Source: a virus
Lineage: Duplodnaviria > Heunggongvirae > Uroviricota > Caudoviricetes
Length of the DNA stretch: 21,240 nt
Strand: one strand, 5' to 3'
IMG/VR virus record: IMGVR_UViG_2744054964_000005
The notes beneath the pieces are model-generated. The model saw nothing but the letters and a program-made list of their open reading frames with translations. It was not told the origin of the DNA and did no database searches. Each line of letters begins with the position of its first letter. Positions within the stretch are counted from its first letter, which is position 1. Made by a program: the position numbers and the translations under genes. Positions 1 through 14,557 of the stretch are shown here, piece by piece.

Positions 1-996
1 TTATGGACGCATTATGGACATTCCTGACACCGGGTTAAGAGTCACAGCATCTTGTAAGAAATCCGGTGCAAAGTGTGCGTAGGTCATAGTTTGCTGAATG
101 TTAGAATGACCCAGGATGCGCTGCAATGTGATTATGTTACCTCCATTCATTATAAAATGTGTGGCAAATGTATGCCTCAAAACATGTACTGCTTGTCCGT
201 CAGGTAAATCGGGTTTTACTTCCCTGAGAGCGTTACGCACTTTGTAGTAACTGGCATTAAAAAGCCTGCCTGAATTTTTGGTCTTGATCCGTTTAATCAG
301 GTCCTGCGAAACGGGAATTGTCCTGCGTTTTCCGTTTTTAGTTTTCATAAACGTAACCATCTGGTTAATGATGTGTTCAGCTTTTAAATTAGACACTTCA
401 CTCCAGCGTCCACCAGTAGAAAGGCAGACCAGAGTTGCATTTAATTCATCACCATCAAGCATGGATAACAGCCGCGTAATCTCTTCACTGGACAAAAAAG
501 CCATTTCCGTAACAGCTTCACGTAACCGTTTAATCTCACGGAACGGGTTGTGAGAGTGGTATTCACCGGCGTCAATTAACTTGGTGAACATCCCACTCAT
601 TATTGCCAGATGTCGATTTACGCTGGCTGGTTTTAGACCATCGTTCATCATTACAACGCGATAATCAGTTATCGTTTTCTTTGTTAGCTGGTCAGCTCTG
701 GACACTCCCATTTCTGCAAATTTGGCGATTATTGTCGTTAAACGCCCCCGTTCAATATCTCCACGCTCATGTGATTTTCCGTGATATATCCACCATCTGC
801 CTAACAACTCTGTAAGAGTTCGGCGGTCGGCTGGTTTCTCCAACCACTCTTTGTTGTGGTAGTTAACCAGTACATGACGTTCGAATGCTTGAGCTTCACC
901 TTTAGTTTTAAATTTCCGCCTGATACGTTTTCCATCTGCACCCTGCGGTCTGACGTCCACTTCATAACGACCATCATCGAGCTTTTTAATAGACAT
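1..996 (-). CDS. int: Tyrosine-type site-specific integrase (P2 Int-like), complete; stop codon at 1..3
   Basis: 331-aa ORF with C-terminal catalytic-region motifs (HVLRHTFATHF ... LGHSNIQQTMTYAHF, catalytic Tyr). ATG at 994-996 is preceded on the minus strand by GGAGG with a 5-nt spacer. Position is left of the repressor, as in P2. Confidence 0.9.
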   Translation of the reverse strand: MSIKKLDDGRYEVDVRPQGADGKRIRRKFKTKGEAQAFERHVLVNYHNKEWLEKPADRRTLTELLGRWWIYHGKSHERGDIERGRLTTIIAKFAEMGVSRADQLTKKTITDYRVVMMNDGLKPASVNRHLAIMSGMFTKLIDAGEYHSHNPFREIKRLREAVTEMAFLSSEEITRLLSMLDGDELNATLVCLSTGGRWSEVSNLKAEHIINQMVTFMKTKNGKRRTIPVSQDLIKRIKTKNSGRLFNASYYKVRNALREVKPDLPDGQAVHVLRHTFATHFIMNGGNIITLQRILGHSNIQQTMTYAHFAPDFLQDAVTLNPVSGMSIMRP

Positions 997-1089
997 AAAG
1001 CCCTCCGATGACGCTGTTTACTTCTACTACTTGAAAATTAATGCAATTTTCTTTCGTACATTTACTACACACATATGCTGAATAAATCG

Positions 1090-1389
1090 TCAGCCAGTCT
1101 TCTGGTCTGAGTGGTGCAAGGTTGTTGAGTCTTGCCCAATGTGTGCGAGAGCCGGGGCTATTTGTCCAGCTGCTGGATCTGTTTCATCAAACATGAACCA
1201 GTCACGATACTTGCGAAAGCGTGGATGCTTAAACAGCTTCATACCTGCTTCCATAGGCATTTTTGATTTTCCTGATTCATATCCATGATATGTGTAGTAA
1301 TTAATTCCAATTAATTCAGCAAGTTCCTTAGTTTTAAGGCGTTCGGATTCACGGATGAGCTTTAGTTTCTCACTTTGTTCACTTGACAT
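1090..1389 (-). CDS. C: Immunity repressor, P2 C-like (HTH, 99 aa from the ATG at 1389; the ORF track extends it to a TTG at 1407)
   Basis: Small HTH protein (LAELIGINYYTYHGYESG) transcribed divergently from the early operon and upstream of int on the same strand. The forward CAT at 1387-1389 gives a 99-aa product, which is the P2 C length as I remember it. Confidence 0.75.
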   Translation of the reverse strand: MSSEQSEKLKLIRESERLKTKELAELIGINYYTYHGYESGKSKMPMEAGMKLFKHPRFRKYRDWFMFDETDPAAGQIAPALAHIGQDSTTLHHSDQKTG

Positions 1390-1482
1390 AATTTTGCTAA
1401 TCTCCAATTATATTGTTACTTGGCAATTTGCGATTCACTCAAAAAGGCTCTAGATGGCTCCAGTTGGTGAATCGCAAATCTT
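1390..1482. promoter_or_regulatory. Divergent early promoter/operator region (Pc leftward, Pe rightward) with a 13-bp inverted repeat
   Basis: ATTTGCGATTCAC at about 1426..1438 and its reverse complement GTGAATCGCAAAT at 1467..1479. A minus-strand TATAAT (forward ATTATA, 1407..1412) sits just upstream of the C start. The region lies between the divergent repressor and cox genes. Confidence 0.5.
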
Positions 1483-1854
1483 ATGGAGGATAGCAAAGTG
1501 ACGACAAATGTAGAAATTTCTTGTCCAACTAGCGATGAGGCAAGTTTCGAAAATGAAGCCAAACGTAAAAGCATTCAGATTTCAGAGCGCCCATCTGATT
1601 TGCTGTCGAAAGAAGGTTTTGCTCTTTACATCGGTAAGACACCACGCGCGGTGGCTGAAATGGCTAAAGCAGGCAAGCTGCCAGCCTTCTACATGACAGA
1701 CCCATTAAAACCAAGAGGGAAAGCTGAATTATGGATTAATCGCCGTGAGTGGGACAAGTACGCAGCCCAACTGGTTGATGAAGCTCCGACAGAATGGCAT
1801 GACTGGAAAAATCGCATTAGTTACAGCAAATCAAGACATGGCCGTGCGGCTTAA
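1483..1854 (+). CDS. cox: Cox-like excisionase / early transcriptional regulator (start ambiguous: ATG 1483 or GTG 1498)
   Basis: First gene of the rightward early operon, opposite the repressor. Contains a Cox-like segment (GKLPAFYMTDP). GTG at 1498 has a GGAGGA Shine-Dalgarno 7 nt upstream; ATG at 1483 has none. The product is longer than P2 Cox (91 aa from memory). Confidence 0.6.
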   Translation: MEDSKVTTNVEISCPTSDEASFENEAKRKSIQISERPSDLLSKEGFALYIGKTPRAVAEMAKAGKLPAFYMTDPLKPRGKAELWINRREWDKYAAQLVDEAPTEWHDWKNRISYSKSRHGRAA

Positions 1855-1864
1855 GGTGGAAAGG

Positions 1865-2035
1865 ATGAACGAGCCTCGTTGTATTGCTCAGTTATTGCGT
1901 AACGAAAGCCCCAGGGCGATTGACTTCACCATCACCCACGGTAAGGGGCGTAAGGGAATCATTATCCGCACCAAAAAACAGAGTCCGTTAAAAAAGGCTC
2001 TGACCTTTCTGAAAAGCCGGAGGGTATGGAAATGA
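1865..2035 (+). CDS. Small early-operon protein (P2 orf78 position); start trimmed from the ORF-track 1745 to the ATG at 1865 after the cox stop
   Basis: ATG at 1865 follows the cox stop (TAA 1852-1854) and is preceded by AAGGTGGAAAGG. Its stop overlaps the B start (ATGA at 2032-2035). Confidence 0.4.
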   Translation: MNEPRCIAQLLRNESPRAIDFTITHGKGRKGIIIRTKKQSPLKKALTFLKSRRVWK

Positions 2036-2532
2036 CAGTGATGACGCTCAATCTCGTTGAAAAACAGCCAGCAGCTATGCGCCGGATAATTGGCAAGCAT
2101 CTTGCCGTCCCTCGCTGGCAGGAGACATGTGATTATTATAATCAGATGATGGAGCGCGAACGGCTAACGGTTTGCTTTCATGCACAGTTAAAACAGCGTC
2201 ACGCAACGATGCGTTTTGAAGAAATGAACGACGTCGAACGTGAACGACTGGTTTGTGCAATTGATGAATTGCGTGGCGCATTCTCAAAACGCCGTCAGGT
2301 CGGCGCAAGTGAGTATGCATATATTAGTTTTTTAACAGTCAGTCAGCGTCGTACTTTATTTATGCATGCGGGATTGACAGAAAAAGAATTCAATCAGCCG
2401 TACTGGCGAATTAATGAAGAATCATGTTACTGGCGTGATGCTTTATTCCGTGCATTACGTGAATTATTCAGTCTGTTTGAGTATGCACCGACAATTCTGA
2501 CGTCGGTAAAACCAGAGCAATATCTGCATTAA
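2032..2532 (+). CDS. B: Replication protein B-like (P2 gpB family); 166 aa from the ATG at 2032 (ORF track starts at 2026)
   Basis: Position between cox and the small early ORFs. GGAGGG at 2019-2024 gives a good 7-nt spacer to the ATG at 2032 and an implausible 1-nt spacer to 2026. The resulting 166 aa matches my memory of P2 B. Confidence 0.65.
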   Translation: MTVMTLNLVEKQPAAMRRIIGKHLAVPRWQETCDYYNQMMERERLTVCFHAQLKQRHATMRFEEMNDVERERLVCAIDELRGAFSKRRQVGASEYAYISFLTVSQRRTLFMHAGLTEKEFNQPYWRINEESCYWRDALFRALRELFSLFEYAPTILTSVKPEQYLH

Positions 2533-2595
2533 ATAATTAACCAGAGTTTTTAACGCACTTAATCGTGCGGGGCTTCTTTTTGCCTGGAGAAAGTC

Positions 2596-2820
2596 ATGCA
2601 TACAGTTTCTGAAAATCAGTGCGGTAAATACGCATTACTGCTGCAACAGGCCAGAACCGAAGCACAGGCCGACGCTGCGACGCGCTTTTCTTCTCATCTT
2701 GACGCCATGATTCGCCACATCACAAAGGCGGAGTTATCCCGCGTGGAGATAGTTGAGCTGCTCAGTCAGGAGTCGGAAAAATTTCACAATATCGGATTGT
2801 CTCGCGGGGAGGTGCTTTGA
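2596..2820 (+). CDS. Small early protein (P2 orf80 position), hypothetical
   Basis: 74-aa ORF with GGAGA Shine-Dalgarno; its stop overlaps the next start (TGATG at 2817). Confidence 0.55.
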
Positions 2821-3122
2821 TGTCCTGTTCTCATTCAGTTGTATTACTGAATAACGCCTTAAAAATCGCCGTTATGGAAAATGGCGATTTGTCTCTTATT
2901 CAACTTCGTCTTGATAAAGAAAAACGCGACATAACTGAATCTGTTATCGCGATTTATCAGAATGAATTAAACCTCCTGTCTGATGTGATCAATTTACTTG
3001 TTAAACGCGCTGTATTCCACAAGCAAATTTCCTCCGTGGATGAACTGACAAAATTAACGACAGAACTCGCCAGTTATTGCGCTGATGAATTTAAGAAGCT
3101 GAACGACAAAAGGAGCTGGTAA
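2817..3122 (+). CDS. Small early protein (P2 orf81 position), hypothetical
   Basis: 101-aa ORF with GGAGG Shine-Dalgarno, translationally coupled to its neighbours. Confidence 0.55.
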
Positions 3123-3346
3123 TGCCGGACAACGTAGATTTTATTCAGGAACAACAGGCTGAATTACTGGAGCGCCAGATTAACGCGGCAAGGGTAAAAC
3201 ATTGCTGTGCTTCTGCGCTGGTTTGCGAAGAGTGTGACGCGCCAATACCTGCTGCCCGTCGTGCAGCTTATCCGTCAGCCACGCGTTGTGTTTCCTGTCA
3301 GTCAGTCTTTGAAGCAAAAAACAAACATTACCGGAGAACGGCATGA
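3122..3346 (+). CDS. TraR/DksA-family C4 zinc-finger protein (P2 orf82 position)
   Basis: 74-aa protein with two Cys pairs (CEEC ... CVSC) after a helical N-terminus, as in TraR/DksA proteins; AGGAG Shine-Dalgarno. Confidence 0.7.
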   Translation: MPDNVDFIQEQQAELLERQINAARVKHCCASALVCEECDAPIPAARRAAYPSATRCVSCQSVFEAKNKHYRRTA

Positions 3347-3618
3347 GTATTCGTATTGAAATTGGCGAACGTTATGTCGTTACCAGTGACAGCTTTCAGT
3401 TTATTCTCCACGAGAAAAAGAGAGCGGAAAGCGGTAAAAACGCCGGTCAGGAATGGCTGGCGGTGGTTGGTTATTACCCGAAATTAGGCCAGCTCGTTTC
3501 CGGCCTGATGCATCACGATATTCTGACCGGAAGCGCAAAATCTTTTGCTGATTTAAACGCGCAGGTTGAGCAACTCAGCAAGCGTTGTTCAGAGGCTTTT
3601 GGCTCATATGGCCGTTAA
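3343..3618 (+). CDS. Small early protein (P2 orf83 position), hypothetical; overlaps the start of gene A
   Basis: 91-aa ORF with GGAGAA Shine-Dalgarno, directly upstream of gene A. Confidence 0.55.
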   Translation: MSIRIEIGERYVVTSDSFQFILHEKKRAESGKNAGQEWLAVVGYYPKLGQLVSGLMHHDILTGSAKSFADLNAQVEQLSKRCSEAFGSYGR

Positions 3619-5893
3619 AGCCTCCGGGCGTTTTGTCCCTCCGTCAGCATTTACCGCAGGCACCAGTAAGGCGTTTACCGGTGCTTATGCATGGAACGCG
3701 CCACGCGAGGCTGTCGGGCGCGAAAGACCTCTTACACGTGACGAGATGCGTCAGGTGCAAGGTGTTTTATCCACGATTAACCGCCTGCCTTACTTTTTGC
3801 GCTCGCTGTTTACTTCACGCTATGACTACATCCGGCGCAATAAAAGCCCGGTGCACGGGTTTTATTTCCTCACATCTACTTTTCAGCGTCGTTTATGGCC
3901 GCGCATTGTGCGTGTGAATCAGCGCCATGAAATGAACACCGACGCGTCGTTGCTGTTTCTGGCAGAGCGCGACCAGTATGCGCGCTTGCCGGGGATGAAT
4001 GACAAGGAGCTGAAAAAGTTTGCCGCCCGTATCTCATCGCAGCTTTTCATGATGTATGAGGAACTCTGCGATGCATGGGTTGATGCGCATGGTGAAAAAG
4101 AATCGCTGTTTACGGATGAGGCGCAGGCTCACCTGTATGGTCATGTTGCTGGCGCTGCACGTGCTTTCAATATTTCCCCGCTCTACTGGAAAAAATACCG
4201 TAAAGGACAGATGACCACGAGGCAGGCATATTCTGCCATTGCCCGCCTGTTTAACGATGAGTGGTGGACTCATCAGCTTAAAGGCCAGCGTATGCGCTGG
4301 CATGAGGCGTTACTGATTGCTGTCGGGGAGGTCAATAAAGACCGTTCTCCTTATGCCAGTAAACATGCCATTCGTGATGTGCGTGCGCGCCGCCAGGCAA
4401 ATCTGGAATTTCTTAAATCGTGTGACCTTGAAAACAAGGAAACCGGCGAGCGCATCGACCTTATCAGTAAGGTGATGGGCAGTATTTCTAATCCTGAAAT
4501 TCGCCGGATGGAGCTGATGAACACCATTGCCGGTATTGAGCGTTACGCCGCCGCAGAGGGTGATGTGGGGATGTTTATCACGCTGACCGCGCCGTCAAAG
4601 TATCACCCGACACGTCAGGTCGGAAAAGGCGAAAGTAAAACCGTTCAGCTTAATCACGGCTGGAACGATGAGGCATTTAATCCAAAGGATGCGCAGCGTT
4701 ATCTCTGCCGTATCTGGAGCCTGATGCGCACGGCATTCAAGGATAATGATTTACAGGTCTACGGTTTGCGTGTCGTCGAGCCACACCACGACGGAACGCC
4801 GCACTGGCATATGATGCTTTTTTGTAATTCACGCCAGCGTAACCAGATTATCGAAATCATGCGTCGCTATGCGCTCAAAGAGGATGGCGACGAAAGAGGA
4901 GCCGCGCGAAACCGTTTTCAGGCAAAACACCTTAACCGGGGCGGTGCTGCGGGATATATCGCGAAATACATTTCAAAAAACATCGACGGCTATGCACTGG
5001 ATGGTCAGCTCGATAACGACACCGGCAGGCCGCTGAAAGACACTGCAGCGGCTGTTACCGCATGGGCGTCAACGTGGCGCATCCCGCAATTTAAAACGGT
5101 TGGCCTGCCGACAATGGGGGCTTACCGTGAACTACGCAAATTGCCGCGCGGCGTCAGCATTGCTGATGAGTTTGACGAGCGCGTCGAGGCTGCACGCGCC
5201 GCCGCAGACAGTGGTGATTTTGCGTTGTATATCAGCGCGCAGGGTGGGGCAAATGTCCCGCGCGATTGTCAGACTGTCAGAGTCGCCCGTAGCCCGTCGG
5301 ATGAAGTTAACGAGTACGAGGAAGAAGTCGAGAGAGTGGTCGGCATTTACGCGCCGCATCTCGGCGCGCGTCATATTCATATCACCAGAACGACGGACTG
5401 GCGCATTGTGCCGAAAGTTCCGGTCGTTGAGCCTTTGACTTTAAAAAGCGGCATCGCCGCGCCTCGGAGTCCTGTCAATAACTGTGGAAAGCTCACCGGT
5501 GGTGATACTTCGTTACCGGCTCCCACACCTTCTGAGCACGCCGCAGCAGTGCTTAATCTGGTTGATGACGGTGTTATTGAATGGAATGAACCGGAGGTCG
5601 TGAGGGCGCTCAGGGGCGCATTAAAACACGACCTGCGAACGCCAAACCGTCAGCAAAGAAACGGAAGCCCGTTAAAACCACATGAAATTGCACCATCGGC
5701 CAGACTGACCCGGTCGGAAAGAATGCAAATTACCCGTATCCGCGTTGACCTTGCTCAGAACGGTATCAGGCCGCAGCGATGGGAGCTTGAGGCGCTGGCG
5801 CGTGGCGCGACCATAAATTATGGCGGGGAAAAAGTCACGTATCCGGTCACTGATGAGTGGCCGGGATTCTCAACAGTAATGGAGTGGACATAA
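3608..5893 (+). CDS. A: Rolling-circle replication initiator, P2 gpA family (761 aa from the ATG at 3608; the ORF track begins at a TTG at 3566)
   Basis: Metal-binding HxH-type motif (EPHHDGTPHWHMMLF) and a Tyr-containing motif (GYIAKYISK) typical of rolling-circle Rep proteins. The length from ATG 3608 equals the P2 A length as I remember it. Confidence 0.9.
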   Translation: MAVKASGRFVPPSAFTAGTSKAFTGAYAWNAPREAVGRERPLTRDEMRQVQGVLSTINRLPYFLRSLFTSRYDYIRRNKSPVHGFYFLTSTFQRRLWPRIVRVNQRHEMNTDASLLFLAERDQYARLPGMNDKELKKFAARISSQLFMMYEELCDAWVDAHGEKESLFTDEAQAHLYGHVAGAARAFNISPLYWKKYRKGQMTTRQAYSAIARLFNDEWWTHQLKGQRMRWHEALLIAVGEVNKDRSPYASKHAIRDVRARRQANLEFLKSCDLENKETGERIDLISKVMGSISNPEIRRMELMNTIAGIERYAAAEGDVGMFITLTAPSKYHPTRQVGKGESKTVQLNHGWNDEAFNPKDAQRYLCRIWSLMRTAFKDNDLQVYGLRVVEPHHDGTPHWHMMLFCNSRQRNQIIEIMRRYALKEDGDERGAARNRFQAKHLNRGGAAGYIAKYISKNIDGYALDGQLDNDTGRPLKDTAAAVTAWASTWRIPQFKTVGLPTMGAYRELRKLPRGVSIADEFDERVEAARAAADSGDFALYISAQGGANVPRDCQTVRVARSPSDEVNEYEEEVERVVGIYAPHLGARHIHITRTTDWRIVPKVPVVEPLTLKSGIAAPRSPVNNCGKLTGGDTSLPAPTPSEHAAAVLNLVDDGVIEWNEPEVVRALRGALKHDLRTPNRQQRNGSPLKPHEIAPSARLTRSERMQITRIRVDLAQNGIRPQRWELEALARGATINYGGEKVTYPVTDEWPGFSTVMEWT

Positions 5894-6060
5894 TGGCAAA
5901 AATTCACGCAATATTAGATAATTTCGTACTGTATATATTTAGTGTTATTGAAAAATCTCGACAGAAAGAGCTTTCTGTATTTAATCGTTGCTTGCAGTTT
6001 GGTATTGTTTACCATGATTGTTTGTTAAGTGCTTTAAAGGTGAGGGATGAGCGAGTTTGA
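5893..6060 (+). CDS. Hypothetical 55-aa protein, first ORF of the AT-rich cargo locus (ORF track starts at 5857)
   Basis: ATG overlaps the A stop (TAATG, 5891-5895) and is preceded by GGAGTGG. The ORF is AT-rich and overlaps the start of the 612-aa ORF by 14 nt. Confidence 0.4.
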   Translation: MAKIHAILDNFVLYIFSVIEKSRQKELSVFNRCLQFGIVYHDCLLSALKVRDERV

Positions 6061-7885
6061 TGTTTTTTCTATTTCAGTTGATGATTTTAAAAAAAGTGAA
6101 TACGCCAGTATATTATCATCGCCAAGAAGTTATTCTCATTTTGATATGGAGTCTTATTTTGTTCAGTTGCTGTCATCTTACAAGCAAAAAAACGATGTAA
6201 GTTCTTGGCGGCTTTGCTATTTATTACGTGCGTTGTTTAATTTTAAATTTTCTAGGTCTGGTGATATTATCGGTTTTGAGCCAAAAATCATTCTCTATCC
6301 TGAGAGGGGCTATAGGCCTTCAGATTATAAGGAGAGTTTTTCAACAATATTAACTTGCATTAAAGAAAACTCCGATAATCCTTATATTATATCTAGGGTG
6401 TGTGATGTTTTATGGATAAATAACCGTAAGGATATAGACTCTGCCAATAAAGCAATAGAGTCATATTCTCTAATGGTTAATGATGCTTGCGATACTTTAA
6501 TAGAAAAACAAGAGTCAGGTGATATCCATATTTTTGATGTTGTTGACTGCTTGGATAGAGGTATCGCAATATCGCGCATGCTTATTGGCAGGAAAAAACA
6601 ACTACAAGGGGGGATAGTTGATTCAACATTAAGGTTATATCATGTATTAATAGACTCTGGTATATTCGCCGGTGTATTAAGAGTTTCTGAAATTCTTTAT
6701 AAGAATAATTTATTGTGTCCATTGCAATTGGCTGAGAATGCAGAAAAGATAGCTGATGAGCATTGTGGAGCGTCTTATTTTGATGCAGTGAAAAAATTGT
6801 TTTATTTTGCGTCTGAATTATATGTTAAAAACGATATGGAAGAGCAAGGAAGACGGTGCAGAATTAAAGCGTCAGAAATAACATTGGCTCAATTTGAACA
6901 GTCTTCATCTTCAATATTGAAGGCTCATTGGTTAAGAGTTGCTCTTGGCGAATTTAGAGCAATTGGTGGAATGAATGAAGAAATTAAAAAGATTAGAGAG
7001 GAATTGAATTCTATTCGAGATCAAATCAATGATGAAATGCACTTCTTTGCAATACCAATGGATCTTAGTGATGTTATCGCTCAGAAAGAGCATGTTTATA
7101 ATCAATTGGATTTCTCAAGGGTAATTAAAACTTTAATTGCTAGATTTAAGATTGTAAGTGCCAGTGAAATTATGGAAAGAGCTCGTTCCGATGCTAAAAA
7201 ACATTTTTTTCTTAATATGAGTGAAACGGTTGTTTATGATGATAGAGGGCGCGTTGTAGCAAGTCGTTCACCTTTGGATCCTGCGGGGGATATAAGTTTA
7301 AATGATGCTTGTGCAAATTATTTAAGAACTAGTAACATTGAGCATCAGGTCTATGTTTGTGGTGAGTTTGAAGTCGTTAGGCAAAGTGTGTTGGCTAGGT
7401 ATTCATTAAATGAAAATACATTTGACCCAATCTCACAACAAAGTGCATTTGTTCCACCTGGGTATGCAGAAATATTTTCTTTGGGGTTTTATAAGCTTTG
7501 GCAGGGAGATTATGTGTCTGCGTGTTATTTGTTATTGCCGCAATTGGAGAATTCAATTAGATGGATTTTAGAATTAAGAAGAAAAGAAACAACGAAAATA
7601 GATGTGTCGCTTTTTGAGGAGGCTACTAGCCTATCTCAAATGCTTGCAAATTATAGGAGTGAAATGGAAGGTGTTTTTGATAGTGATCATGTATTGACTA
7701 TGGATTTATTGTTCAATATGAAAGGTGGTGCTGCAATTAGACACACGATGGCTCATGGCAGGTATACTGTAAATCATTGTTATCAACCAACTTCAGTTTT
7801 TGCCTGTGTCTTTATCTTTTATTTAACTTGTTTGCCTTTATTTAGTGTATGGGAAGATAAAGTTGAACCTTATCTGGCTGATTAA
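6047..7885 (+). CDS. Uncharacterised 612-aa cargo protein; candidate HEPN-like anti-phage defence/abortive-infection effector (not Old, not Tin)
   Basis: Long uninterrupted ORF in visibly AT-rich DNA with a GGTGAGGG Shine-Dalgarno. No Walker A (GxxxxGK[ST]) motif. C-terminal IRHTMAHG (R565-x4-H570, nt 7739..7756) fits the HEPN R-x4-6-H signature, followed by a hydrophobic stretch (SVFACVFIFYLTCLPLFSVW). It occupies the P2 orf91/tin/old position between A and cos. Confidence 0.85.
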   Translation: MSEFDVFSISVDDFKKSEYASILSSPRSYSHFDMESYFVQLLSSYKQKNDVSSWRLCYLLRALFNFKFSRSGDIIGFEPKIILYPERGYRPSDYKESFSTILTCIKENSDNPYIISRVCDVLWINNRKDIDSANKAIESYSLMVNDACDTLIEKQESGDIHIFDVVDCLDRGIAISRMLIGRKKQLQGGIVDSTLRLYHVLIDSGIFAGVLRVSEILYKNNLLCPLQLAENAEKIADEHCGASYFDAVKKLFYFASELYVKNDMEEQGRRCRIKASEITLAQFEQSSSSILKAHWLRVALGEFRAIGGMNEEIKKIREELNSIRDQINDEMHFFAIPMDLSDVIAQKEHVYNQLDFSRVIKTLIARFKIVSASEIMERARSDAKKHFFLNMSETVVYDDRGRVVASRSPLDPAGDISLNDACANYLRTSNIEHQVYVCGEFEVVRQSVLARYSLNENTFDPISQQSAFVPPGYAEIFSLGFYKLWQGDYVSACYLLLPQLENSIRWILELRRKETTKIDVSLFEEATSLSQMLANYRSEMEGVFDSDHVLTMDLLFNMKGGAAIRHTMAHGRYTVNHCYQPTSVFACVFIFYLTCLPLFSVWEDKVEPYLAD

Positions 7886-8047
7886 TGGAAGTTGATTTAG
7901 GTATTTTGGCATTTATCTTTCTGCGTGCAATATGTGCATGGTTTTGCATGTGCCGGAGTTGCATGTTCCGGCCGTGCGTCCGCCAGGACGGGCGTGGCTC
8001 AAAAGCGGTATTGCACCTGCATTAAAACCGCCCCACGAAGCGGGCGG

Positions 8048-8066
8048 GCGAGGCGGGGAAAGCACT
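8048..8066. other. cos site: 19-nt cohesive-end sequence GGCGAGGCGGGGAAAGCAC
   Basis: Exact match to the P2/P4 cohesive-end sequence as I remember it, located between the cargo locus and the portal gene Q, as expected for a P2 prophage. Confidence 0.55.
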
Positions 8067-8207
8067 GCGCGCTGGCGGTGGTGCTGATTTTATTTTTTCA
8101 GCGTCTGAGCGCGTCGTGACGGCGCTTAGTCTACCCGTTGTGGTGTTGGTGTGTCTGCGGGGTGTTTTGTGCGGTGGTGAGCGTGTGAGGGCGTGATGAC
8201 GGGATGT

Positions 8208-8229
8208 AAAAAAGCCGCCCGCAGGCGGC
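8208..8229 (-). terminator. Intrinsic terminator for the leftward P-Q transcript
   Basis: On the minus strand, GCCGCC-TGCG-GGCGGC is followed by TTTTTT, immediately after the Q stop codon (8235-8237). Confidence 0.5.
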
Positions 8230-8234
8230 GATGT

Positions 8235-9269
8235 TCAGCCGTTGTCAGTGTCCAGTGAGTAGTTTTTAAAGCGGATGACATCCTGACCGAGCCAGCCGTT
8301 TATTTCCCGAATCCTGTCCTGTAACGGGATAAGCTCATTGCGGACAAAGACCTTTGCCACTTTCTCAATATCTCCCAGCGACCCGACATTCTCCGGCTTG
8401 CCGCCCATCAACTGAAAGGGGATGCGGTGCGCGTCCAGCAGGTCAGCGGCGCTGGCTTTTTTGATATTAAAAAAATCGTCTTTCGTCGCCACTTCACTGA
8501 GCGGGATAATTTTAATGCCGTCGGCTTTTCCCTGCGGGGCGTAGAGAAACAGATTTTTAAAGTTGTTGCGGCCTTTCGACTTAACCATGTTTTCGCGAAG
8601 CATTTCGATATCGTTGCGATCCTGCACGGCATCGGTGACGTACATGATGTATCCGGCATGTGCGCCGTTTTCGTAATACTTGCGGCGGAACAGCGTGGCC
8701 GATTCATTCAGCCAGGCAGAGTTAAGGGCGCTGAGATATTCCGGCAGGCCGTACAGCTCCTGATTAATATCCGGCTCCAGCAGGTGAAACACGGAACCGG
8801 GCGCGAAGGCTGTCGGCTCGTTGAAGGACGGCACCCACCAGTAAACATCCTCTTCCACACCACGGCGGGTATATTTTGCCGGTGAGGTTTCCAGTCTGAT
8901 GACTTTACCGGTAGTGCTGTAACGCTTTTCCAGAAACGCATTACCGAACACCAGAAAATCCAGCACAAAGCGGCTGAAATCCTGCTGGGACAGCCACGGG
9001 TGCGGGATAAACGTTGAAGCCAGAATATTACGTTTGACGTAAATCGGTGAGCTGTGATGCACGGCAGCACGCAGGCTTTTTGCCAGACCGGTAAAGCTGA
9101 TTGGTGGCTCATACCATCTGCCGTTACTGATGCATTCGACGTAATCCAGAATGTCACGGCGGTCGAGTACCGGCACCGGCTCACCAAAGGTGAATGCCTC
9201 CATTTTCGGGGCGCTGGCAGTCATTTTTTTTGCCGCAGGTTGCGGTGTTTTCCCTTTTTTCTTGCTCAT
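8235..9269 (-). CDS. Q: Portal protein (P2 gpQ)
   Basis: 344-aa ORF, the same length as P2 Q from memory, next to cos. Its start overlaps the P stop (ATGA). Confidence 0.9.
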   Translation of the reverse strand: MSKKKGKTPQPAAKKMTASAPKMEAFTFGEPVPVLDRRDILDYVECISNGRWYEPPISFTGLAKSLRAAVHHSSPIYVKRNILASTFIPHPWLSQQDFSRFVLDFLVFGNAFLEKRYSTTGKVIRLETSPAKYTRRGVEEDVYWWVPSFNEPTAFAPGSVFHLLEPDINQELYGLPEYLSALNSAWLNESATLFRRKYYENGAHAGYIMYVTDAVQDRNDIEMLRENMVKSKGRNNFKNLFLYAPQGKADGIKIIPLSEVATKDDFFNIKKASAADLLDAHRIPFQLMGGKPENVGSLGDIEKVAKVFVRNELIPLQDRIREINGWLGQDVIRFKNYSLDTDNG

Positions 9270-11041
9270 CAGTAAAACTCCAGAATGGTGGATGTCAGCG
9301 GGGTGCTGATACCGGCGGTGAGTGGCTCATTTAACAGGGCGTGCATGGTCGCCCAGGCGAGGTCGGCGTGGCTGGCTTCCTCGCTGCGGCTGGCCTCATA
9401 GGTGGCGCTGCGTCCGCTGCTGGTCATGGTCTTGCGGATAGCCATAAACGAGCTGGTGATGTCGGTGGCGCTGACGTCATATTCCAGACAGCCACGACGG
9501 ATAACGTCTTTTGCCTTGAGCACCATTGCGGTTTTCATTTCCGGTGTGTAGCGGATATCGCGCGCGGCGGGATAGAACGAGCGCACGAGCTGGAACACGC
9601 CGACACCGAGGCCGGTGGCATCAATACCGATGTATTCGACGTTATATTTTTCGGTGAGTTTGCGGATGGATTCAGCCTGGGTGGCAAAGTCCATGCCTTT
9701 CCACTGGTGACGCTCAAGTATTCTGAATTTGCCTCCGGCCACTACCGGCGGTGCCAGTACCACGCATCCGGCGCTGTCGCCACGGTGTGACGGGTCGTAA
9801 CCAATCCAGACCGGGCGGGAGCCGAACGGATTCGCGGCAAACGGCGCATAGTCTTCCCATTCTTCCAGCGTGTCGACCATGCAGCGTTGCAGCTCCTCGA
9901 ACGGGAACACCGACGCCTTGTCGTCAACAAATTCACACATGAACAGGTTTTTAAAATCGTCGGCGCTGTTTTCGCGTTTAAGCTGCTCAATGTCGAACAG
10001 CGTGCAGCCACCTTTCAGGGCGTCCTCAATGGTGACAATCTGCCGCCACTGACCGTCCGCACAGAGAAGCCCACCGGCAAGGGCGTTATGACTGACGTCG
10101 ATTTCCACGCGTTCGGCGGCGCTGGCGCGTCCCCGGTTGAACAGTTCACCCGACCAGAACGGGTAGGCGTCGTGCGCCAGCGTGGACGGGGTGGAGAAAT
10201 AGGTCGAGCGCAGGTGACTCTGTGAGGCCATACCTGATGCCACCTTACGCAGTACCTGAAAATTCGGTATCCAGAAAATCTCGTCGACGTACAGGTCGCC
10301 GTTATGGCTCTGCGCGGTGTTGGAGTTGGTGCCGAGAAAAATCAGTTTTGCGCCGTTATTACCCAGGACAATCGGGTCACCGGTCAGGTCAACGTCAACC
10401 AGCCGGGCAAAGGCGATGATGTATTCGCGGAACACATACGCCTGCGTTTTACTGGCCGACAGAAAAATCTGGTTATGACCGGTTTTCAGGGCGCGCAGCA
10501 GCGCCTCGCGGGAAAAATAAAACGTCGCGCCAATCTGGCGGGATTTCAGGATATCGCGGATGCGGTGCTCAAGCCCGGCGCGATACCAGTGCAACTGATA
10601 TTCGAAAGACTGCTCAAAGAAAATCTGCTCCAGCTTTTCGATAGCCTCGTCACTGAAAAAATTCTTTTTCGGTTTGCGCCGCCCGCCTTTGTTGCGGTTA
10701 GCGATGTTCGGATTAAGGTCTGCCTCGTTGCCGGTCTGGCTGTAGCGGTTTACCCGTGCCAGTCGTTCAATCTGGCGTCCGAGCAGGTCAATTTCCTTAA
10801 AGTCACCGCCGGTTTTCTGCGGTTTGATGATGAGCTGGGTCAGCCGCGCTTCCAGACTCATTTCGACACGGCTGATGGGGGCAACGCTGTCCCAGCCGTC
10901 GCGCTGTTTCCAGCTCTGCACCGTCGGGCGTTTCATCTGCAACATGGCGGCAATCTGCGGCACGGAAAACCCCTGCCAGTACAGCAGCGCCGCCTGACGA
11001 CGCGGGTCGTGTAAAAGAGTGGTGTCTGTGGTGATGGTCAT
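9269..11041 (-). CDS. P: Terminase large (ATPase) subunit (P2 gpP); start at the ATG at 11041 rather than the ORF-track 11071
   Basis: About 590 aa, transcribed divergently from the capsid operon. The ATG at 11039-11041 has GAGG about 6 nt upstream on the minus strand. Confidence 0.9.
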   Translation of the reverse strand: MTITTDTTLLHDPRRQAALLYWQGFSVPQIAAMLQMKRPTVQSWKQRDGWDSVAPISRVEMSLEARLTQLIIKPQKTGGDFKEIDLLGRQIERLARVNRYSQTGNEADLNPNIANRNKGGRRKPKKNFFSDEAIEKLEQIFFEQSFEYQLHWYRAGLEHRIRDILKSRQIGATFYFSREALLRALKTGHNQIFLSASKTQAYVFREYIIAFARLVDVDLTGDPIVLGNNGAKLIFLGTNSNTAQSHNGDLYVDEIFWIPNFQVLRKVASGMASQSHLRSTYFSTPSTLAHDAYPFWSGELFNRGRASAAERVEIDVSHNALAGGLLCADGQWRQIVTIEDALKGGCTLFDIEQLKRENSADDFKNLFMCEFVDDKASVFPFEELQRCMVDTLEEWEDYAPFAANPFGSRPVWIGYDPSHRGDSAGCVVLAPPVVAGGKFRILERHQWKGMDFATQAESIRKLTEKYNVEYIGIDATGLGVGVFQLVRSFYPAARDIRYTPEMKTAMVLKAKDVIRRGCLEYDVSATDITSSFMAIRKTMTSSGRSATYEASRSEEASHADLAWATMHALLNEPLTAGISTPLTSTILEFY

Positions 11042-11214
11042 GAATACCTCGCCGTGATGAATACACGGCAAGGCTACTGAGTCGCGCCCCGCGATTCGCT
11101 AAGGTGCTGTTGTGTCAGTGATAAGCCATCCGGGACTGATGGCGGAGGATGCGCATCGTCGGGAAACTGATGCCGACATGTGACTCCTCTAATCACTATT
11201 CAGGACTCCTGACA
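11042..11214. promoter_or_regulatory. Divergent late promoter region (P2 PP/PO equivalents, expected Ogr-type activator dependent)
   Basis: Intergenic region between the divergently transcribed P and O, as in P2. I could not find a clean TGT-N12-ACA activator site by eye. Confidence 0.45.
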
Positions 11215-12069
11215 ATGGCAAAAAAAGTCTCAAAATTCTTTCGTATCGGCGTTGAGGGTGACACCTGTGACGGGCGTGTCATCAGTGCGCAGGATATTCA
11301 GGAAATGGCCGAAACCTTTGACCCGCGTGTCTACGGTTGCCGCATTAACCTGGAACATCTGCGCGGCATCCTGCCTGACGGTATTTTTAAACGTTATGGC
11401 GATGTGGCCGAACTGAAGGCCGAAAAGATTGATGACGATTCGGCGCTGAAAGGCAAATGGGCGCTGTTTGCGAAAATCACCCCGACCGATGACCTTATCG
11501 CGATGAACAAGGCCGCGCAGAAGGTCTACACCTCAATGGAAATTCAGCCGAACTTTGCCAACACCGGCAAATGTTATCTGGTGGGTCTGGCCGTCACCGA
11601 TGACCCGGCAAGCCTCGGCACGGAATACCTGGAATTCTGCCGCACGGCAAAACACAACCCTCTGAACCGCTTCAAATTAAGCCCTGAAAACCTGATTTCA
11701 GTGGCAACGCCTGTTGAGCTGGAATTTGAAGACCTGCCTGAAACCGTGTTCACCGCCCTGACCGAAAAGGTGAAATCCATTTTTGGCCGCAAACAGGCCA
11801 GCGATGACGCTCGTCTGAATGACGTGCATGAAGCGGTGACCGCTGTTGCTGAACATGTGCAGGAAAAGCTGAGCGCCACTGAGCAGCGACTCGCTGAGAT
11901 GGAAACCGCCTTTTCCGCACTTAAGCAGGAGGTGACTGACAGGGCGGATGAAACCAGCCAGGCATTCAGCCGCCTGAAAAACAGTCTCGACCACACCGAA
12001 AGTCTGACCCAGCAGCGCCGCAGCAAGGCCACCGGCGGTGGCGGTGACGCCCTGATGACGAACTGCTGA
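11215..12069 (+). CDS. O: Capsid scaffolding protein (P2 gpO); start at the ATG at 11215 rather than the ORF-track 11149
   Basis: 284 aa from ATG 11215, which is the P2 O length from memory. The acidic, coiled-coil-rich C-terminal half is typical of scaffold proteins. Confidence 0.85.
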   Translation: MAKKVSKFFRIGVEGDTCDGRVISAQDIQEMAETFDPRVYGCRINLEHLRGILPDGIFKRYGDVAELKAEKIDDDSALKGKWALFAKITPTDDLIAMNKAAQKVYTSMEIQPNFANTGKCYLVGLAVTDDPASLGTEYLEFCRTAKHNPLNRFKLSPENLISVATPVELEFEDLPETVFTALTEKVKSIFGRKQASDDARLNDVHEAVTAVAEHVQEKLSATEQRLAEMETAFSALKQEVTDRADETSQAFSRLKNSLDHTESLTQQRRSKATGGGGDALMTNC

Positions 12070-12127
12070 CCGGCGTCAGCCAGTCCGGGAAAACCTTCAC
12101 GATTAACCCTTAATTTCAGGAAAAACT

Positions 12128-13201
12128 ATGCGCCAGGAAACTCGCTTTAAATTTAATGCCTACCTGTCCCGTGTTGCCGAACTGAACGGCATCGACGCCG
12201 GTGATGTGTCGAAAAAATTCACCGTTGAACCGTCGGTCACCCAGACTCTGATGAACACCATGCAGGAGTCCTCTGACTTTCTGACCCGCATCAACATTGT
12301 GCCGGTCAGCGAAATGAAAGGGGAAAAAATTGGTATTGGTGTCACCGGCTCCATCGCCAGCACCACAGACACCGCCGGTGGCACCGAGCGTCAGCCGAAG
12401 GACTTCTCGAAGCTGGCGTCAAACAAGTACGAATGCGACCAGATTAACTTCGATTTTTATATCCGCTACAAAACGCTTGACCTGTGGGCGCGTTATCAGG
12501 ATTTCCAGCTCCGTGTCCGTAACGCCATTATCAAACGCCAGTCCCTTGATTTAATCATGGCCGGTTTTAACGGCGTGAGGCGTGCCGAAACCTCTGACCG
12601 CAGCAGTAACCAGATGCTGCAGGATGTGGCGGTCGGCTGGCTGCAGAAATACCGCAATGAAGCCCCGGCGCGCGTGATGAGCAAGGTTACTGACGAGGAA
12701 GGTCACACGACCTCTGAGGTCATCCGCGTGGGTAAGGGCGGTGATTATGCCAGCCTCGATGCACTGGTGATGGATGCGACCAACAACCTGATTGAGCCGT
12801 GGTATCAGGAAGACCCTGACCTTGTGGTGATTGTGGGGCGTCAGCTACTGGCGGACAAGTATTTCCCCATCGTCAACAAGGAGCAGGACAACAGCGAGAT
12901 GCTGGCCGCTGACGTCATCATCAGCCAGAAACGCATCGGTAACCTGCCGGCGGTACGCGTCCCGTACTTCCCGGCGGATGCGATGCTCATCACGAAGCTG
13001 GAAAACCTGTCCATCTACTACATGGATGACAGCCATCGCCGCGTGATTGTGGAAAACCCGAAACTCGACCGCGTGGAGAACTACGAGTCAATGAACATTG
13101 ATTACGTGGTGGAAGACTACGCCGCCGGTTGTCTGGTGGAAAAAATTAAGGTCGGTGACTTCTCCACACCGACTAAAGTGACCGCAGAGCCGGGAGCGTA
13201 A
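12128..13201 (+). CDS. N: Major capsid protein (P2 gpN)
   Basis: 357 aa, AGGA Shine-Dalgarno, directly after the scaffold gene. Confidence 0.9.
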   Translation: MRQETRFKFNAYLSRVAELNGIDAGDVSKKFTVEPSVTQTLMNTMQESSDFLTRINIVPVSEMKGEKIGIGVTGSIASTTDTAGGTERQPKDFSKLASNKYECDQINFDFYIRYKTLDLWARYQDFQLRVRNAIIKRQSLDLIMAGFNGVRRAETSDRSSNQMLQDVAVGWLQKYRNEAPARVMSKVTDEEGHTTSEVIRVGKGGDYASLDALVMDATNNLIEPWYQEDPDLVVIVGRQLLADKYFPIVNKEQDNSEMLAADVIISQKRIGNLPAVRVPYFPADAMLITKLENLSIYYMDDSHRRVIVENPKLDRVENYESMNIDYVVEDYAAGCLVEKIKVGDFSTPTKVTAEPGA

Positions 13202-13204
13202 CCG

Positions 13205-13948
13205 ATGACGAGTCCTGCACAGCGCCACATGATGCGGGTCTCGGCAGCGATGACCGCGCAGCGGGACGCCGCCCCGCTGCGACATGCAACTGTCTATGAG
13301 CAGATGCTGGTCAAGCTGGCCGCAGACCAGCGCACACTGAAAGCGATTTATTCAAAAGAGCTGAAGGCCGCGAAAAAACGCGAACTGCTGCCGTTCTGGT
13401 TGCCGTGGGTGAACGGCGTGCTGGAGCAGGGCAAAGGTGCACAGGATGACATTCTGATGACGGTCATGCTGTGGCGTCTGGATACCGGCGATATTGCCGG
13501 TGCGCTGGAGATTGCCCGTTATGCCCTGAAGTACGGTCTGACCATGCCGGGTAAACACCGCCGTACCCCGCCGTACATGTTCACCGAGGAGGTAGCGCTT
13601 GCGGCCATGCGCGCCCACGCTGCCGGTGAATCTGTGGATACCCGCCTGCTGACGGAAACCCTTGAACTGACCGCCACGGCAGACATGCCTGATGAAGTGC
13701 GCGCAAAGCTGCACAAAATCACCGGTCTGTTTCTGCGTGACGGTGATGATGCCGCCGGTGCGCTGGCTCACCTGCAACGTGCGACACAGCTCGACTGTCA
13801 GGCAGGCGTCAAAAAAGAGATTGAACGACTGGAGCGGGAGCTGAAACCGAAGCCGGAGCCGCAGCCAAAAGCGGCCACCCGCGCCCCGCGTAAGACCCGG
13901 AGTGCGACACCGGCAAAACGTGGACGCCCGAAAAAGAAAGCCAGTTAA
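13205..13948 (+). CDS. M: Terminase small (endonuclease) subunit (P2 gpM)
   Basis: 247 aa with a basic Lys/Arg/Pro-rich C-terminus; GGGAG Shine-Dalgarno; follows N. Confidence 0.85.
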   Translation: MTSPAQRHMMRVSAAMTAQRDAAPLRHATVYEQMLVKLAADQRTLKAIYSKELKAAKKRELLPFWLPWVNGVLEQGKGAQDDILMTVMLWRLDTGDIAGALEIARYALKYGLTMPGKHRRTPPYMFTEEVALAAMRAHAAGESVDTRLLTETLELTATADMPDEVRAKLHKITGLFLRDGDDAAGALAHLQRATQLDCQAGVKKEIERLERELKPKPEPQPKAATRAPRKTRSATPAKRGRPKKKAS

Positions 13949-14047
13949 CAACCGAATGCGCCCCGCGCCAGGGCGGCACGCCGGTCAGTGAGGGTGAATC
14001 ACCTGACACTGCACCGGCGTCCACCGCCCGACTTTTCAGAGGTAGTC

Positions 14048-14557
14048 ATGATGACGCTGATTATTCCGCGAAAGGAGGCTCCCGTGTCCGGTGAGGGTAC
14101 GGTGGTCATCCCGCAACCGGCAGGCGACGAGCCGGTGATTAAAAACACGTTCTTTTTTCCCGATATCGACCCGAAGCGCGTCCGGGAACGTATGCGCCTT
14201 GAGCAGACCGTCGCCCCCGCCCGTCTGCGTGAGGCCATCAAGTCAGGCATGGCTGAAACAAATGCGGAGCTGTACGAGTACCGCGAACAGAAAATTGCCG
14301 CCGGTTTTACGCGTCTGGCGGACGTTCCGGCGGACGACATCGACGGTGAAAGCATCAAAGTTTTTTACTACGAGCGCGCCGTGTGTGCGATGGCGACCGC
14401 GTCGCTTTATGAGCGTTATCGCGGCGTGGATGCCAGTGCGAAAGGCGACAAGAAGGCTGACAGCATTGACAGCACCATTGATGAACTGTGGCGGGATATG
14501 CGCTGGGCGGTGGCGCGTATCCAGGACAAGCCACGCTGCATCGTGAGTCAAATCTGA
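14048..14557 (+). CDS. L: Head completion/stabilisation protein (P2 gpL); start at the ATG at 14048 rather than the GTG at 13988
   Basis: 169 aa from ATG 14048, with GAGG 6 nt upstream; position after M. Confidence 0.8.
   Translation: MMTLIIPRKEAPVSGEGTVVIPQPAGDEPVIKNTFFFPDIDPKRVRERMRLEQTVAPARLREAIKSGMAETNAELYEYREQKIAAGFTRLADVPADDIDGESIKVFYYERAVCAMATASLYERYRGVDASAKGDKKADSIDSTIDELWRDMRWAVARIQDKPRCIVSQI

What the first reader, a model, noticed from the sequence alone, without database searches (positions are those of the whole stretch)
5894..7920. Sharp compositional island bounded exactly by the gene A stop and the cos-proximal region
The switch from GC-rich phage DNA to AT-rich DNA (long A/T runs, AAA/AAT/TTT/ATT-rich codons) occurs within a few bases of the A stop and reverts just after the cargo stop. 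This is the signature of a horizontally acquired moron at a recombination hotspot. Composition was judged by eye.
Basis: seen in the sequence. Interest (0 to 1): 0.5.

Follow-up and report, generated by a model that had tools for sequence, protein, structure and literature searches.

The report
AT-rich cargo cassette in P2 hotspot
The AT-rich stretch is real, but it is the already documented swap-in "cargo" slot of P2-like prophages between the replication gene and the packaging site, here holding one previously catalogued, still untested candidate anti-phage gene with an RNase-type (HEPN) end domain.

Summary
Observation confirmed. GC falls from 53.6% (gene A) to 34.2% across 5894-7920, then rises to 60.5%. 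Maximum-likelihood change points are 5866 and 7945, and no other 2-kb window falls below 43.5%. Interpretation supported, but already known. The window is a P2-like prophage, and the island fills the gpA-cos "TO region" hotspot (Odegrip 2006; Rousset 2022; Vassallo 2022). The same island is GenBank AM157366 ("P2-EC46 ORF612", 99.4%) and system #55 in Rousset's Table S5B. The flanks occur in 1,681-2,156 of 5,426 complete E. coli genomes, the island in 21. Eight related loci carry other or diverged cargo there, all at 33-42% GC. The island holds one convincing gene, ORF612 (6047-7885). It combines DUF7380, helical repeats and a C-terminal HEPN domain with an invariant R565-x4-H570. It matches PADLOC candidate PDC-S39 and has dN/dS of about 0.22. 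The 55-aa ORF at the A stop is a junction chimera, not a conserved partner. The right edge coincides with a conserved motif 111-112 nt from cos that satellite P4 shares. Low GC persists in orthologues down to 32-35% identity in the same slot, so it does not date the acquisition. Defence activity is inferred only. A paralogue that Rousset cloned is listed as tested but not validated.

The parts
3566..5893 (+). Gene A (replication endonuclease). Its stop codon at 5891-5893 is the left limit of the island.
   Evidence: Pfam Phage_GPA, E 1.7e-123. Annotated as replication endonuclease in the 100%-identical E. coli record.
5853..5908 (.). Left junction zone. Homology with 569R9, YpM22 and the Citrobacter locus ends about 5860, inside the last ~33 nt of A. 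Homology with P2 and YpM50 runs to 5908, i.e. the first 16 nt of orf91.
   Evidence: Alignments A1 and A4. Megablast left pieces end at query 709, which is window 5908.
5894..7934 (.). AT-rich cargo cassette at 34% GC.
   Evidence: It is 99.4% identical to AM157366 'P2-EC46 proviral ORF612'. It is present in 21 of 5,426 complete E. coli genomes.
5893..6060 (+). orf55, a doubtful ORF. Its ATG overlaps the A stop (TAATG). Its first five codons (MAKIH) are the retained start of P2 orf91, and its end overlaps the ORF612 start by 14 nt.
   Evidence: Matches phrog_37811. PGAP annotates it in one genome. The 91% variant has a 15-codon deletion and has lost the stop. The Citrobacter and P0005 loci have no such ORF. 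dN/dS is uninformative, with only 8 changes.
5950..6046 (+). Conserved upstream block, inferred to be the cargo's own promoter and 5' UTR. A possible extended -10 (TGGTATTGT) lies at 6000-6008 and a Shine-Dalgarno (AAGGTGAGG) at 6037-6045.
   Evidence: This DNA is conserved between the E. coli and Citrobacter cassettes although the ORF is not. AM157366 annotates an RBS at the equivalent of 6037-6040. The promoter assignment is my reading of the sequence, and the consensus scan did not list it.
6047..7885 (+). ORF612, the single convincing cargo gene (612 aa, 70 kDa).
   Evidence: PADLOC PDC-S39, E 7e-69, full length. phrog_5183. 32% identical over its full length to the DUF4209 protein at the same site in 569R9, E 4e-119. 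dN/dS 0.21-0.24. Family of 5,869 50%-identity clusters.
6068..6598 (+). DUF7380 domain (aa 8-184), with family-wide conserved R117, D120, W123, Y140 and R171. It is followed by a helical-repeat middle region (aa ~185-424).
   Evidence: Pfam PF24098, 88.4 bits against a cut-off of 27. Conservation over 162 sequences. The AF2 model is all-alpha with TPR-like fold hits.
7454..7882 (+). C-terminal HEPN-type domain (aa ~470-612), with the conserved P498-Q-x-E501-x3-R505 helix.
7739..7759 (+). R565-H-T-M-A-H570-G571, the R-x4-H catalytic signature of HEPN RNases.
   Evidence: R565 is 99%, H570 100% and G571 100% conserved in 162 sequences with a median 21% identity to the query. These columns are invariant in A3 and A5.
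7886..7934 (.). AT-rich 3' tail of the cassette. The right recombination junction lies in this stretch.
   Evidence: It is not conserved between loci carrying different cargo. GC is 0.28-0.38.
7935..7948 (+). Backbone motif TGCATGGTTTTGCA (TGCAT-N4-TTGCA), marking the start of the conserved cos-proximal region. It is followed by a tandem TTGCATGTKCCGG at 7944 and 7959.
   Evidence: One copy in the window. It is present at the same place in P2, five P2-like phages, three prophage loci and satellite P4, always 111-112 nt before cos in the P2-like loci.
8047..8065 (+). cos cohesive-end sequence GGCGAGGCGGGGAAAGCAC.
   Evidence: Exact match to the P2 cosR feature.
8235..9269 (-). Gene Q (portal), the first backbone gene to the right of the hotspot.
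   Evidence: Pfam Phage_portal. Annotated as portal in relatives.

Best explanation
The island is an exchangeable cargo cassette occupying the known gpA-cos (tin/old, 'TO') hotspot of a P2-like (Peduovirus) prophage. It is wedged between two elements the phage cannot lose. On the left is the end of replication gene A. On the right is the extended cos packaging region, which begins at a conserved TGCAT-N4-TTGCA motif 112 nt before the cohesive-end sequence. Cassettes are probably swapped between related phages by recombination in these conserved flanks (inferred). The cargo pool keeps a stable low GC (33-42%) whichever gene is carried. This cassette has one real gene, ORF612. It encodes a 70-kDa all-helical protein with an N-terminal DUF7380 domain, a helical-repeat middle and a single C-terminal HEPN domain bearing an invariant R-x4-H motif. 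The most likely function is a lysogen-expressed, single-protein anti-phage system (PADLOC candidate PDC-S39); I put that at about 0.55, and it is inferred, not shown. In that model the N-terminal and repeat part senses an infection cue. It then permits two HEPN domains to pair into an active RNase, which cuts host or phage RNA and stops the infection. The identity of the locus and the cassette is shown. The HEPN fold and motif are shown computationally. RNase activity, the trigger, dimerisation and any defence phenotype are inferred.
Confidence: 0.85

Rival explanations
1. The cassette is hotspot cargo, but ORF612 is not an anti-phage system. It would serve another purpose, such as a toxin-like addiction function that stabilises the prophage, a weapon or exclusion factor aimed only at related P2/P4 elements, or an RNA-processing function used by the phage itself.
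For: The paralogue gave no validated protection against eight coliphages. About a quarter of P2 hotspots carry non-defence cargo such as partition systems, and about 2% carry a toxin. The gene lies on the same strand as, and directly downstream of, the early replication operon, so it could be expressed during lytic growth.
Against: HEPN domains in bacteria are overwhelmingly found in conflict systems (PMC3710099). Family members are embedded in RM/BREX/DISARM loci. Intact copies persist in defective prophage remnants that can no longer replicate or package, which argues against a phage-only role. A negative result on eight phages is weak evidence, as the authors themselves say.
Confidence: 0.3
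2. The low GC marks a recent transfer into this prophage from a low-GC donor organism. This is the literal reading of 'signature of horizontal acquisition'.
For: There is a sharp 20-point GC step, with GC3 of 0.26 against 0.55-0.70 in backbone genes. The nearest non-P2 relative examined sits in a 41% GC contig.
Against: Orthologues at 88, 77, 52, 35 and 32% amino-acid identity all occupy the same gpA-cos slot in backbones of about 54% GC. All have GC 0.33-0.35 and GC3 0.26-0.29. dS between the E. coli and Citrobacter copies is already about 0.6. Unrelated cargo at the same site, including P2's own tin/old at 0.349, is equally AT-rich. The composition is therefore a long-maintained property of the cargo pool.
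Confidence: 0.1
3. The island encodes a two-gene system in which orf55 (5893-6060) is a functional partner of ORF612, for example a small antitoxin or regulator, translationally coupled to both A and ORF612.
For: The TAATG overlap with the A stop and the 14-nt overlap with ORF612 resemble translational coupling. The ORF has its own PHROG and a PGAP annotation in one genome. The 91% variant keeps the reading frame despite a deletion.
Against: Its first 16 nt are the start of P2 orf91, so it is a junction chimera. The 91% variant lacks 15 codons and has lost the stop. The 77% (Citrobacter), 52% and 35% orthologue loci have no equivalent ORF. PGAP omits it in 20 of the 21 genomes. The family is single-gene in PADLOC (PDC-S) and in Rousset's Table S5B.
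Confidence: 0.07
4. The cassette was inserted by a dedicated site-specific or transpositional mechanism (integron-, IS- or att-like) rather than by recombination in the conserved flanks.
For: The title of Nilsson et al. 2004 (cited) proposes site-specific recombination at P2 variable loci; I could not read that paper. All cargoes end within about 50 nt of the same conserved motif on the right.
Against: No terminal direct or inverted repeats bound the island. The island encodes no recombinase or transposase. The left junction differs between cargoes, at about 5860 versus 5908. The common right limit is explained more simply by the need to keep the cos region, which P4 shares.
Confidence: 0.1

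Closest known systems
P2 'TO region' / gpA-cos defence hotspot, with tin and old in P2 (Odegrip et al. 2006; Rousset et al. 2022, PMC9122126; Vassallo et al. 2022, PMC9519451)
   Same: Same position between gpA and cos/Q, same conserved flanks and the same low GC as tin/old (0.349 against 0.342). This exact cassette is deposited as AM157366 and listed as system #55 (76 occurrences) in Rousset's Table S5B.
   Different: Nothing differs at the level of the locus. The cargo lies on the + strand downstream of A, whereas tin and old are transcribed leftwards from a promoter near cos.
DUF7380-DUF4209 proteins / PADLOC PDC-S39, including the 'Putative HEPN' of E. coli S88 (pFR103) and the 569R9 protein URC09609
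   Same: Same length and domain order, the same slot in P2-like phages, the same invariant PQxExxxR and RxxxAHG motifs, and 32% identity over the full length.
   Different: The window protein's C-terminal domain has diverged below Pfam's DUF4209 detection. Its last helix is much more hydrophobic than the family norm (KD 2.17 against a median of 1.08).
Single-chain HEPN abortive-infection and defence RNases (ApeA, AbiD/AbiF-type Abi_2, the HEPN domain of AbiA, RnlA/LsoA, Csm6)
   Same: A helical-bundle HEPN domain with R-x4-H at the C-terminus of a larger sensor-like protein. AbiA, LsoA, RnlA and Csm6 chains are among the top structural matches.
   Different: There is no detectable sequence relationship outside the motif. 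The N-terminal DUF7380 and repeat region is unrelated to the CARF, RT or NRD domains of those proteins. There is no antitoxin partner, unlike RnlAB/LsoAB. No activity has been demonstrated.
Eukaryotic C6orf70/ERMARD family (Pfam PF13910)
   Same: The bacterial relatives of ORF612 hit the same Pfam model. Anantharaman et al. class it as a catalytically competent HEPN present in bacteria and eukaryotes.
   Different: The eukaryotic proteins are membrane-anchored ER proteins of different overall architecture. The relationship to the window protein is transitive, not direct.

Membership tests
P2-like gpA-cos hotspot cargo | Lies between the stop of replication gene A and the cos site / portal gene Q of a P2-like genome | tested here: met
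   A by Pfam at 3566-5893, cos at 8047-8065, Q at 8235-9269.
P2-like gpA-cos hotspot cargo | Flanks conserved among P2-like phages while the DNA between them is unrelated | tested here: met
   Five phages and P2 share the flanks at 94-97% identity with different cargo. The flanks are in 1,681 and 2,156 genomes, the island in 21.
P2-like gpA-cos hotspot cargo | Cargo compositionally distinct (AT-rich) from the backbone | tested here: met
   0.342 against 0.536 and 0.605. Eight other loci are at 0.33-0.42.
PADLOC PDC-S39 (candidate single-gene defence system) | Full-length match to the PDC-S39 HMMs | tested here: met
   PDLC05011 E 7.2e-69 (aa 8-599) and PDLC05012 E 2.3e-68.
PADLOC PDC-S39 (candidate single-gene defence system) | Protects cells against phage infection | not testable with these tools
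   PDCs are untested by their authors. The paralogue pFR103 is listed as tested but not validated.
Pfam DUF7380 (PF24098) | Score above the gathering threshold | tested here: met
   88.4 bits against a cut-off of 27, over aa 8-184.
Pfam DUF4209 (PF13910) | Direct match of the window protein to the model | tested here: not met
   No hit at E <= 1 for the window protein.
Pfam DUF4209 (PF13910) | Homology to proteins that match the model | tested here: met
   Ten of 12 aligned relatives hit PF13910, best E 4.3e-19. ORF612 is 32% identical over its full length to a DUF4209-annotated protein, E 4e-119. The profile search recovers 5,869 clusters.
HEPN superfamily | Conserved R-x4-6-H motif | tested here: met
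   R565-HTMA-H570, 99% and 100% conserved over 162 sequences.
HEPN superfamily | Alpha-helical bundle fold resembling solved HEPN domains | tested here: met
HEPN superfamily | Metal-independent RNase activity | not testable with these tools
   Requires biochemistry.
Toxin-antitoxin or two-gene defence system | Conserved adjacent partner gene | tested here: not met
   orf55 is absent from the 77%, 52% and 35% orthologue loci and altered in the 91% variant.
Transposon / IS / integron cassette | Terminal repeats, target duplication or an encoded recombinase | tested here: not met
   No bounding direct or inverted repeats. There is no recombinase among the ORFs.

The most novel reading that the evidence does not exclude
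ORF612 and its roughly 5,900-cluster family (DUF7380 plus a HEPN/DUF4209 domain, PADLOC PDC-S39) would be a genuine but so far unvalidated single-protein anti-phage RNase. It would have a narrow or unusual trigger, which would explain why a paralogue scored negative on eight phages. Its HEPN module is shared with eukaryotic ERMARD. The P2 hotspot copy in this window would be a ready-made, naturally expressed test case.
Probability: 0.45. Interest if true: 0.45.

Novelty: already known. Interest (0 to 1): 0.2.

Why it matters
As a compositional finding it adds nothing new. The gpA-cos slot of P2-like phages has been a recognised variable locus since 2004-2006 and a named defence hotspot since 2022, and this exact cassette is in GenBank and in a published catalogue. 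Its remaining value is practical. It flags one of the more common uncharacterised single-gene cargoes of that hotspot, a HEPN protein from a very large family with no demonstrated function. It also shows that the right limit of the slot coincides with a motif shared with satellite P4. Finally, it shows that low GC at this site is a stable trait of the cargo pool rather than a clock for acquisition.

Tried and rejected
2. Sequence and profile searches of the PDB found nothing.
3. NCBIfam has no model for either ORF.
4. I tested the idea that DUF7380 is a cryptic second HEPN or an internal duplication. hhalign of the N-terminal, middle and C-terminal profiles gave probabilities below 3%, so I rejected it.
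5. I rejected orf55 as a partner gene.
6. There are no Rfam families and no tRNA or tmRNA genes in or near the island, so it is not a tRNA-targeted integration.
7. No flanking repeats were found.
8. My first motif search used the wrong spacer (N5) and found nothing. N4 is correct.
9. Odegrip et al. 2006 (PMC1367236) is not held, and Nilsson et al. 2004 is not in the library, so their descriptions of P2-EC46 could not be read.
10. A search of Rousset's supplements for the C-terminal peptide found nothing because that file is truncated.
11. I considered a C-terminal transmembrane anchor. The helix is hydrophobic only in the P2 clade, and the model packs it into the HEPN bundle at pLDDT above 90, so this is not adopted.
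12. One paper search failed on a term that was too short.
Full report
**1. The observation**

The drop in GC is real, large and sharply bounded. Segment GC is as follows:

| Segment | Coordinates | GC |
|---|---|---|
| Gene A | 3566-5893 | 0.536 |
| Island as given | 5894-7920 | 0.342 |
| Right of island | 7921-8234 | 0.605 |
| Remainder of window | 8235-21240 | 0.564 |

- A two-boundary likelihood fit places the change points at 5866 and 7945. The gain is 134.9 nats over a single composition.
- The lowest-GC 2027-nt window of the whole sequence starts at 5890. No window outside the island falls below 0.435 (mean 0.546, sd 0.046).
- Forty-nt windows fall from 0.47 to 0.23 between 5860 and 5939, and rise from 0.38 to 0.60 between 7900 and 7979.
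- Third-position GC of the cargo ORF is 0.261, against 0.554 for A, 0.629 for Q and 0.705 for P.
- The sliding profile shows the same picture.

**2. What the surroundings are**

The window is a P2-like (Peduovirus) prophage. Pfam identifies the following:

- integrase (1-996, minus strand)
- an HTH repressor (1090-1407, minus strand)
- Cox (1483-1854)
- small early ORFs
- replication protein A (3566-5893, E 1.7e-123)
- portal Q (8235-9269, minus strand)
- terminase P (9269-11071, minus strand)
- scaffold O (11149-12069)

The 19-nt P2 cohesive-end sequence GGCGAGGCGGGGAAAGCAC lies at 8047-8065. The island therefore fills the space between the A stop and the cos region.

**3. Conserved flanks, variable insert**

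A megablast of 5200-8600 against phage records finds 89 records that share the flanks at 94-97% identity but not the middle. The cargo at the same place varies:

| Phage | Cargo between gpA and cos |
|---|---|
| P2 | orf91, tin, old |
| vB_EcoM-569R9 | DUF4209 gene |
| pro483 | DUF4238 gene |
| vB_YpM_22 | Fic/VbhT gene |
| vB_YpM_50 | DUF3850 plus a hypothetical gene |

- On the left, homology with P2 and YpM50 runs to window 5908, which is 16 nt into orf91. Homology with 569R9, YpM22 and a Citrobacter locus ends near 5860, inside the last ~33 nt of A.
- On the right, the first column conserved in all loci is a TGCAT-N4-TTGCA motif at 7935-7948, followed by conserved sequence through cos.
- In 5,426 complete E. 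coli genomes, the left flank occurs in 1,681, the right flank in 2,156 and the island in 21. Of those 21, 15 are at 99% identity or more and six are about 91%.
- Cargo in eight other loci has GC 0.33-0.42, against 0.49-0.55 for the adjacent end of A. P2's own tin/old region is at 0.349.

**4. It is already described**

- The island is 99.4% identical to GenBank AM157366, 'Bacteriophage P2-EC46 proviral ORF612', from strain ECOR46.
- Rousset et al. [quoted passage not shown] They found 1,650 arrangements in 18,150 loci and 169 curated systems, and called it a hotspot adjacent to cos.
- Their Table S5B lists the window's protein as system #55, 'DUF4209', with 76 occurrences. The 569R9-type paralogue is system #13 with 193 occurrences.
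- Vassallo et al. 2022 found four new defence systems at the same position.

**5. The right boundary**

- The TGCAT-N4-TTGCA motif sits 111-112 nt before cos in the window and in all nine P2-like loci measured.
- It is also present at the equivalent position in satellite P4. According to Rousset et al., P4 shares only the cos packaging region with P2.
- I infer that the motif marks the left edge of the functional cos region, and that this sets the right limit of the slot. That inference is untested.
- No direct or inverted repeats bound the island.

**6. Gene content**

The island has one convincing gene, ORF612 (6047-7885).

The 55-codon ORF at 5893-6060 overlaps the A stop (TAATG) and the ORF612 start, and it has its own PHROG. 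I do not count it as a gene, for these reasons:

- Its first 16 nt are the retained start of orf91.
- The 91% E. coli variant has a 15-codon deletion and no stop at that place.
- The 77%, 52% and 35% orthologue loci have no such ORF.
- dN/dS rests on only eight changes.

About 100 nt of DNA upstream of the ORF612 start is conserved between E. coli and Citrobacter. I read this block as the promoter and 5' UTR, with a possible extended -10 at 6000-6008. This is inference; the consensus scan did not list it.

**7. The cargo protein**

Family and homology:

- ORF612 matches PADLOC PDC-S39 over its full length, E 7e-69.
- It matches Pfam DUF7380 at aa 8-184.
- It is 32% identical over its whole length to the DUF4209 protein of 569R9, E 4e-119.
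- Ten of 12 aligned relatives hit Pfam DUF4209, although the window protein itself does not.
- A profile search of 1.84 billion representatives finds 5,869 clusters at E <= 0.001. The top 150 are all about 600 aa and match end to end.

Conservation over 162 members with a median 21% identity:

- The most conserved residues (96-100%) include R117, D120, R171, G401, P498, Q499, E501, R505, G561, R565, A569, H570 and G571.
- R565-x4-H570 is the HEPN signature.

Structure:

- The full-length AlphaFold model (pLDDT 82.5) is all-helical and matches only generic repeat proteins.
- Anantharaman et al. 2013 class DUF4209 as a catalytically competent HEPN family found in R-M-related operons.
- Profile-profile comparison finds no second HEPN in the N-terminal part.

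**8. Is the gene functional, and for whom?**

- dN/dS is 0.21-0.24 between the window, the 91% DNA variant and the Citrobacter copy.
- Intact orthologues persist in decayed prophages. One locus has gpA in three fragments and a truncated terminase. Another has no gpA and a 200-aa portal stub. The Citrobacter loci lack the terminase next to the portal gene. This pattern suggests the host keeps the gene independently of the phage (inference).
- PDC families were chosen because members are embedded in BREX, DISARM or type I RM loci, and they are explicitly untested.

**9. Proposed mechanism**

Shown:

- the locus identity
- the single-gene content
- the HEPN motif and fold

Inferred:

- the gene is expressed in the lysogen
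- the DUF7380 and repeat part holds the single HEPN domain inactive until an infection cue
- two HEPN domains then pair to form the composite RNase site, as in other HEPN enzymes
- RNA cleavage aborts the infection

Against this:

- The paralogue cloned by Rousset et al. with its native promoter (pFR103, 'Putative HEPN') appears only among 'additional tested systems' and not among the validated ones.
- No paper in the library reports a phenotype for DUF4209, DUF7380 or PDC-S39.

I put the defence mechanism at about 0.55, and the locus identification at above 0.95.

**10.

Low GC here is not a sign of recent arrival. Orthologues at 88, 77, 52, 35 and 32% amino-acid identity all sit in the gpA-cos slot of backbones of about 54% GC. 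All have GC 0.33-0.35 and GC3 0.26-0.29. dS between the E. coli and Citrobacter copies is about 0.6. The AT-richness is a maintained property of the cargo pool. Whether that reflects H-NS silencing, mutation bias under weak expression or something else was not tested.

**11. Verdict**

The finding is already known at the level of both the locus and the specific cassette, so its interest is low. The only open question is the function of the HEPN cargo protein.

Noticed in passing
window 7935-7971: TGCAT-N4-TTGCA lies at a fixed 111-112 nt left of cos in every P2-like locus examined, and at the equivalent position in satellite P4. In the window it is followed by a tandem TTGCATGTKCCGG at 7944 and 7959. 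It is probably part of the extended packaging signal.
   Followed up: partly
window 5853-5908: There are two alternative left breakpoints among P2-like phages. One lies inside the last ~33 nt of gene A, so the last ~10 residues of gpA differ between phages. The other lies 16 nt into orf91.
   Followed up: partly
L011 3146-4940; L016 11455-12057; L009/L010: Intact ORF612 orthologues are retained in decayed P2 remnants. These show gpA split into three pieces, a truncated terminase, a 200-aa portal stub, or a missing terminase. The pattern suggests the host keeps the cargo after the phage has died.
   Followed up: partly
E. coli records NZ_CP080085, NZ_CP135719, NZ_OX030728, NZ_CP072322 (island at 2287-4313): Several 'complete' chromosomes begin exactly at the start codon of the prophage gene A. 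The assemblies were apparently rotated to a 'replication' gene that is really phage gpA.
   Followed up: no
window 7793-7849 (aa 583-601 of ORF612): The last HEPN helix is unusually hydrophobic in the P2-hotspot clade (Kyte-Doolittle 2.17 over 19 residues) compared with the family median of 1.08. It could be mistaken for, or might double as, a membrane anchor.
   Followed up: partly
L014 10028-10363; L015 8558-8893: A distant (22% identity) family member outside any P2 context is followed in two metagenomic contigs by a SLATT_5 gene and has IS66 nearby. SLATT is a domain I recall as associated with conflict systems.
   Followed up: no
window 1-3565: The integrase and early-regulatory arm is also below the late-gene GC (0.443 against 0.564). 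The change is gradual, with no sharp step.
   Followed up: no
window 7924-7940 (+) and 8028-8047 / 8214-8229 (-): There are terminator-like hairpins. A weak one sits just after ORF612 and overlaps the conserved motif. GC-rich ones sit on the minus strand next to cos and after gene Q.
   Followed up: no
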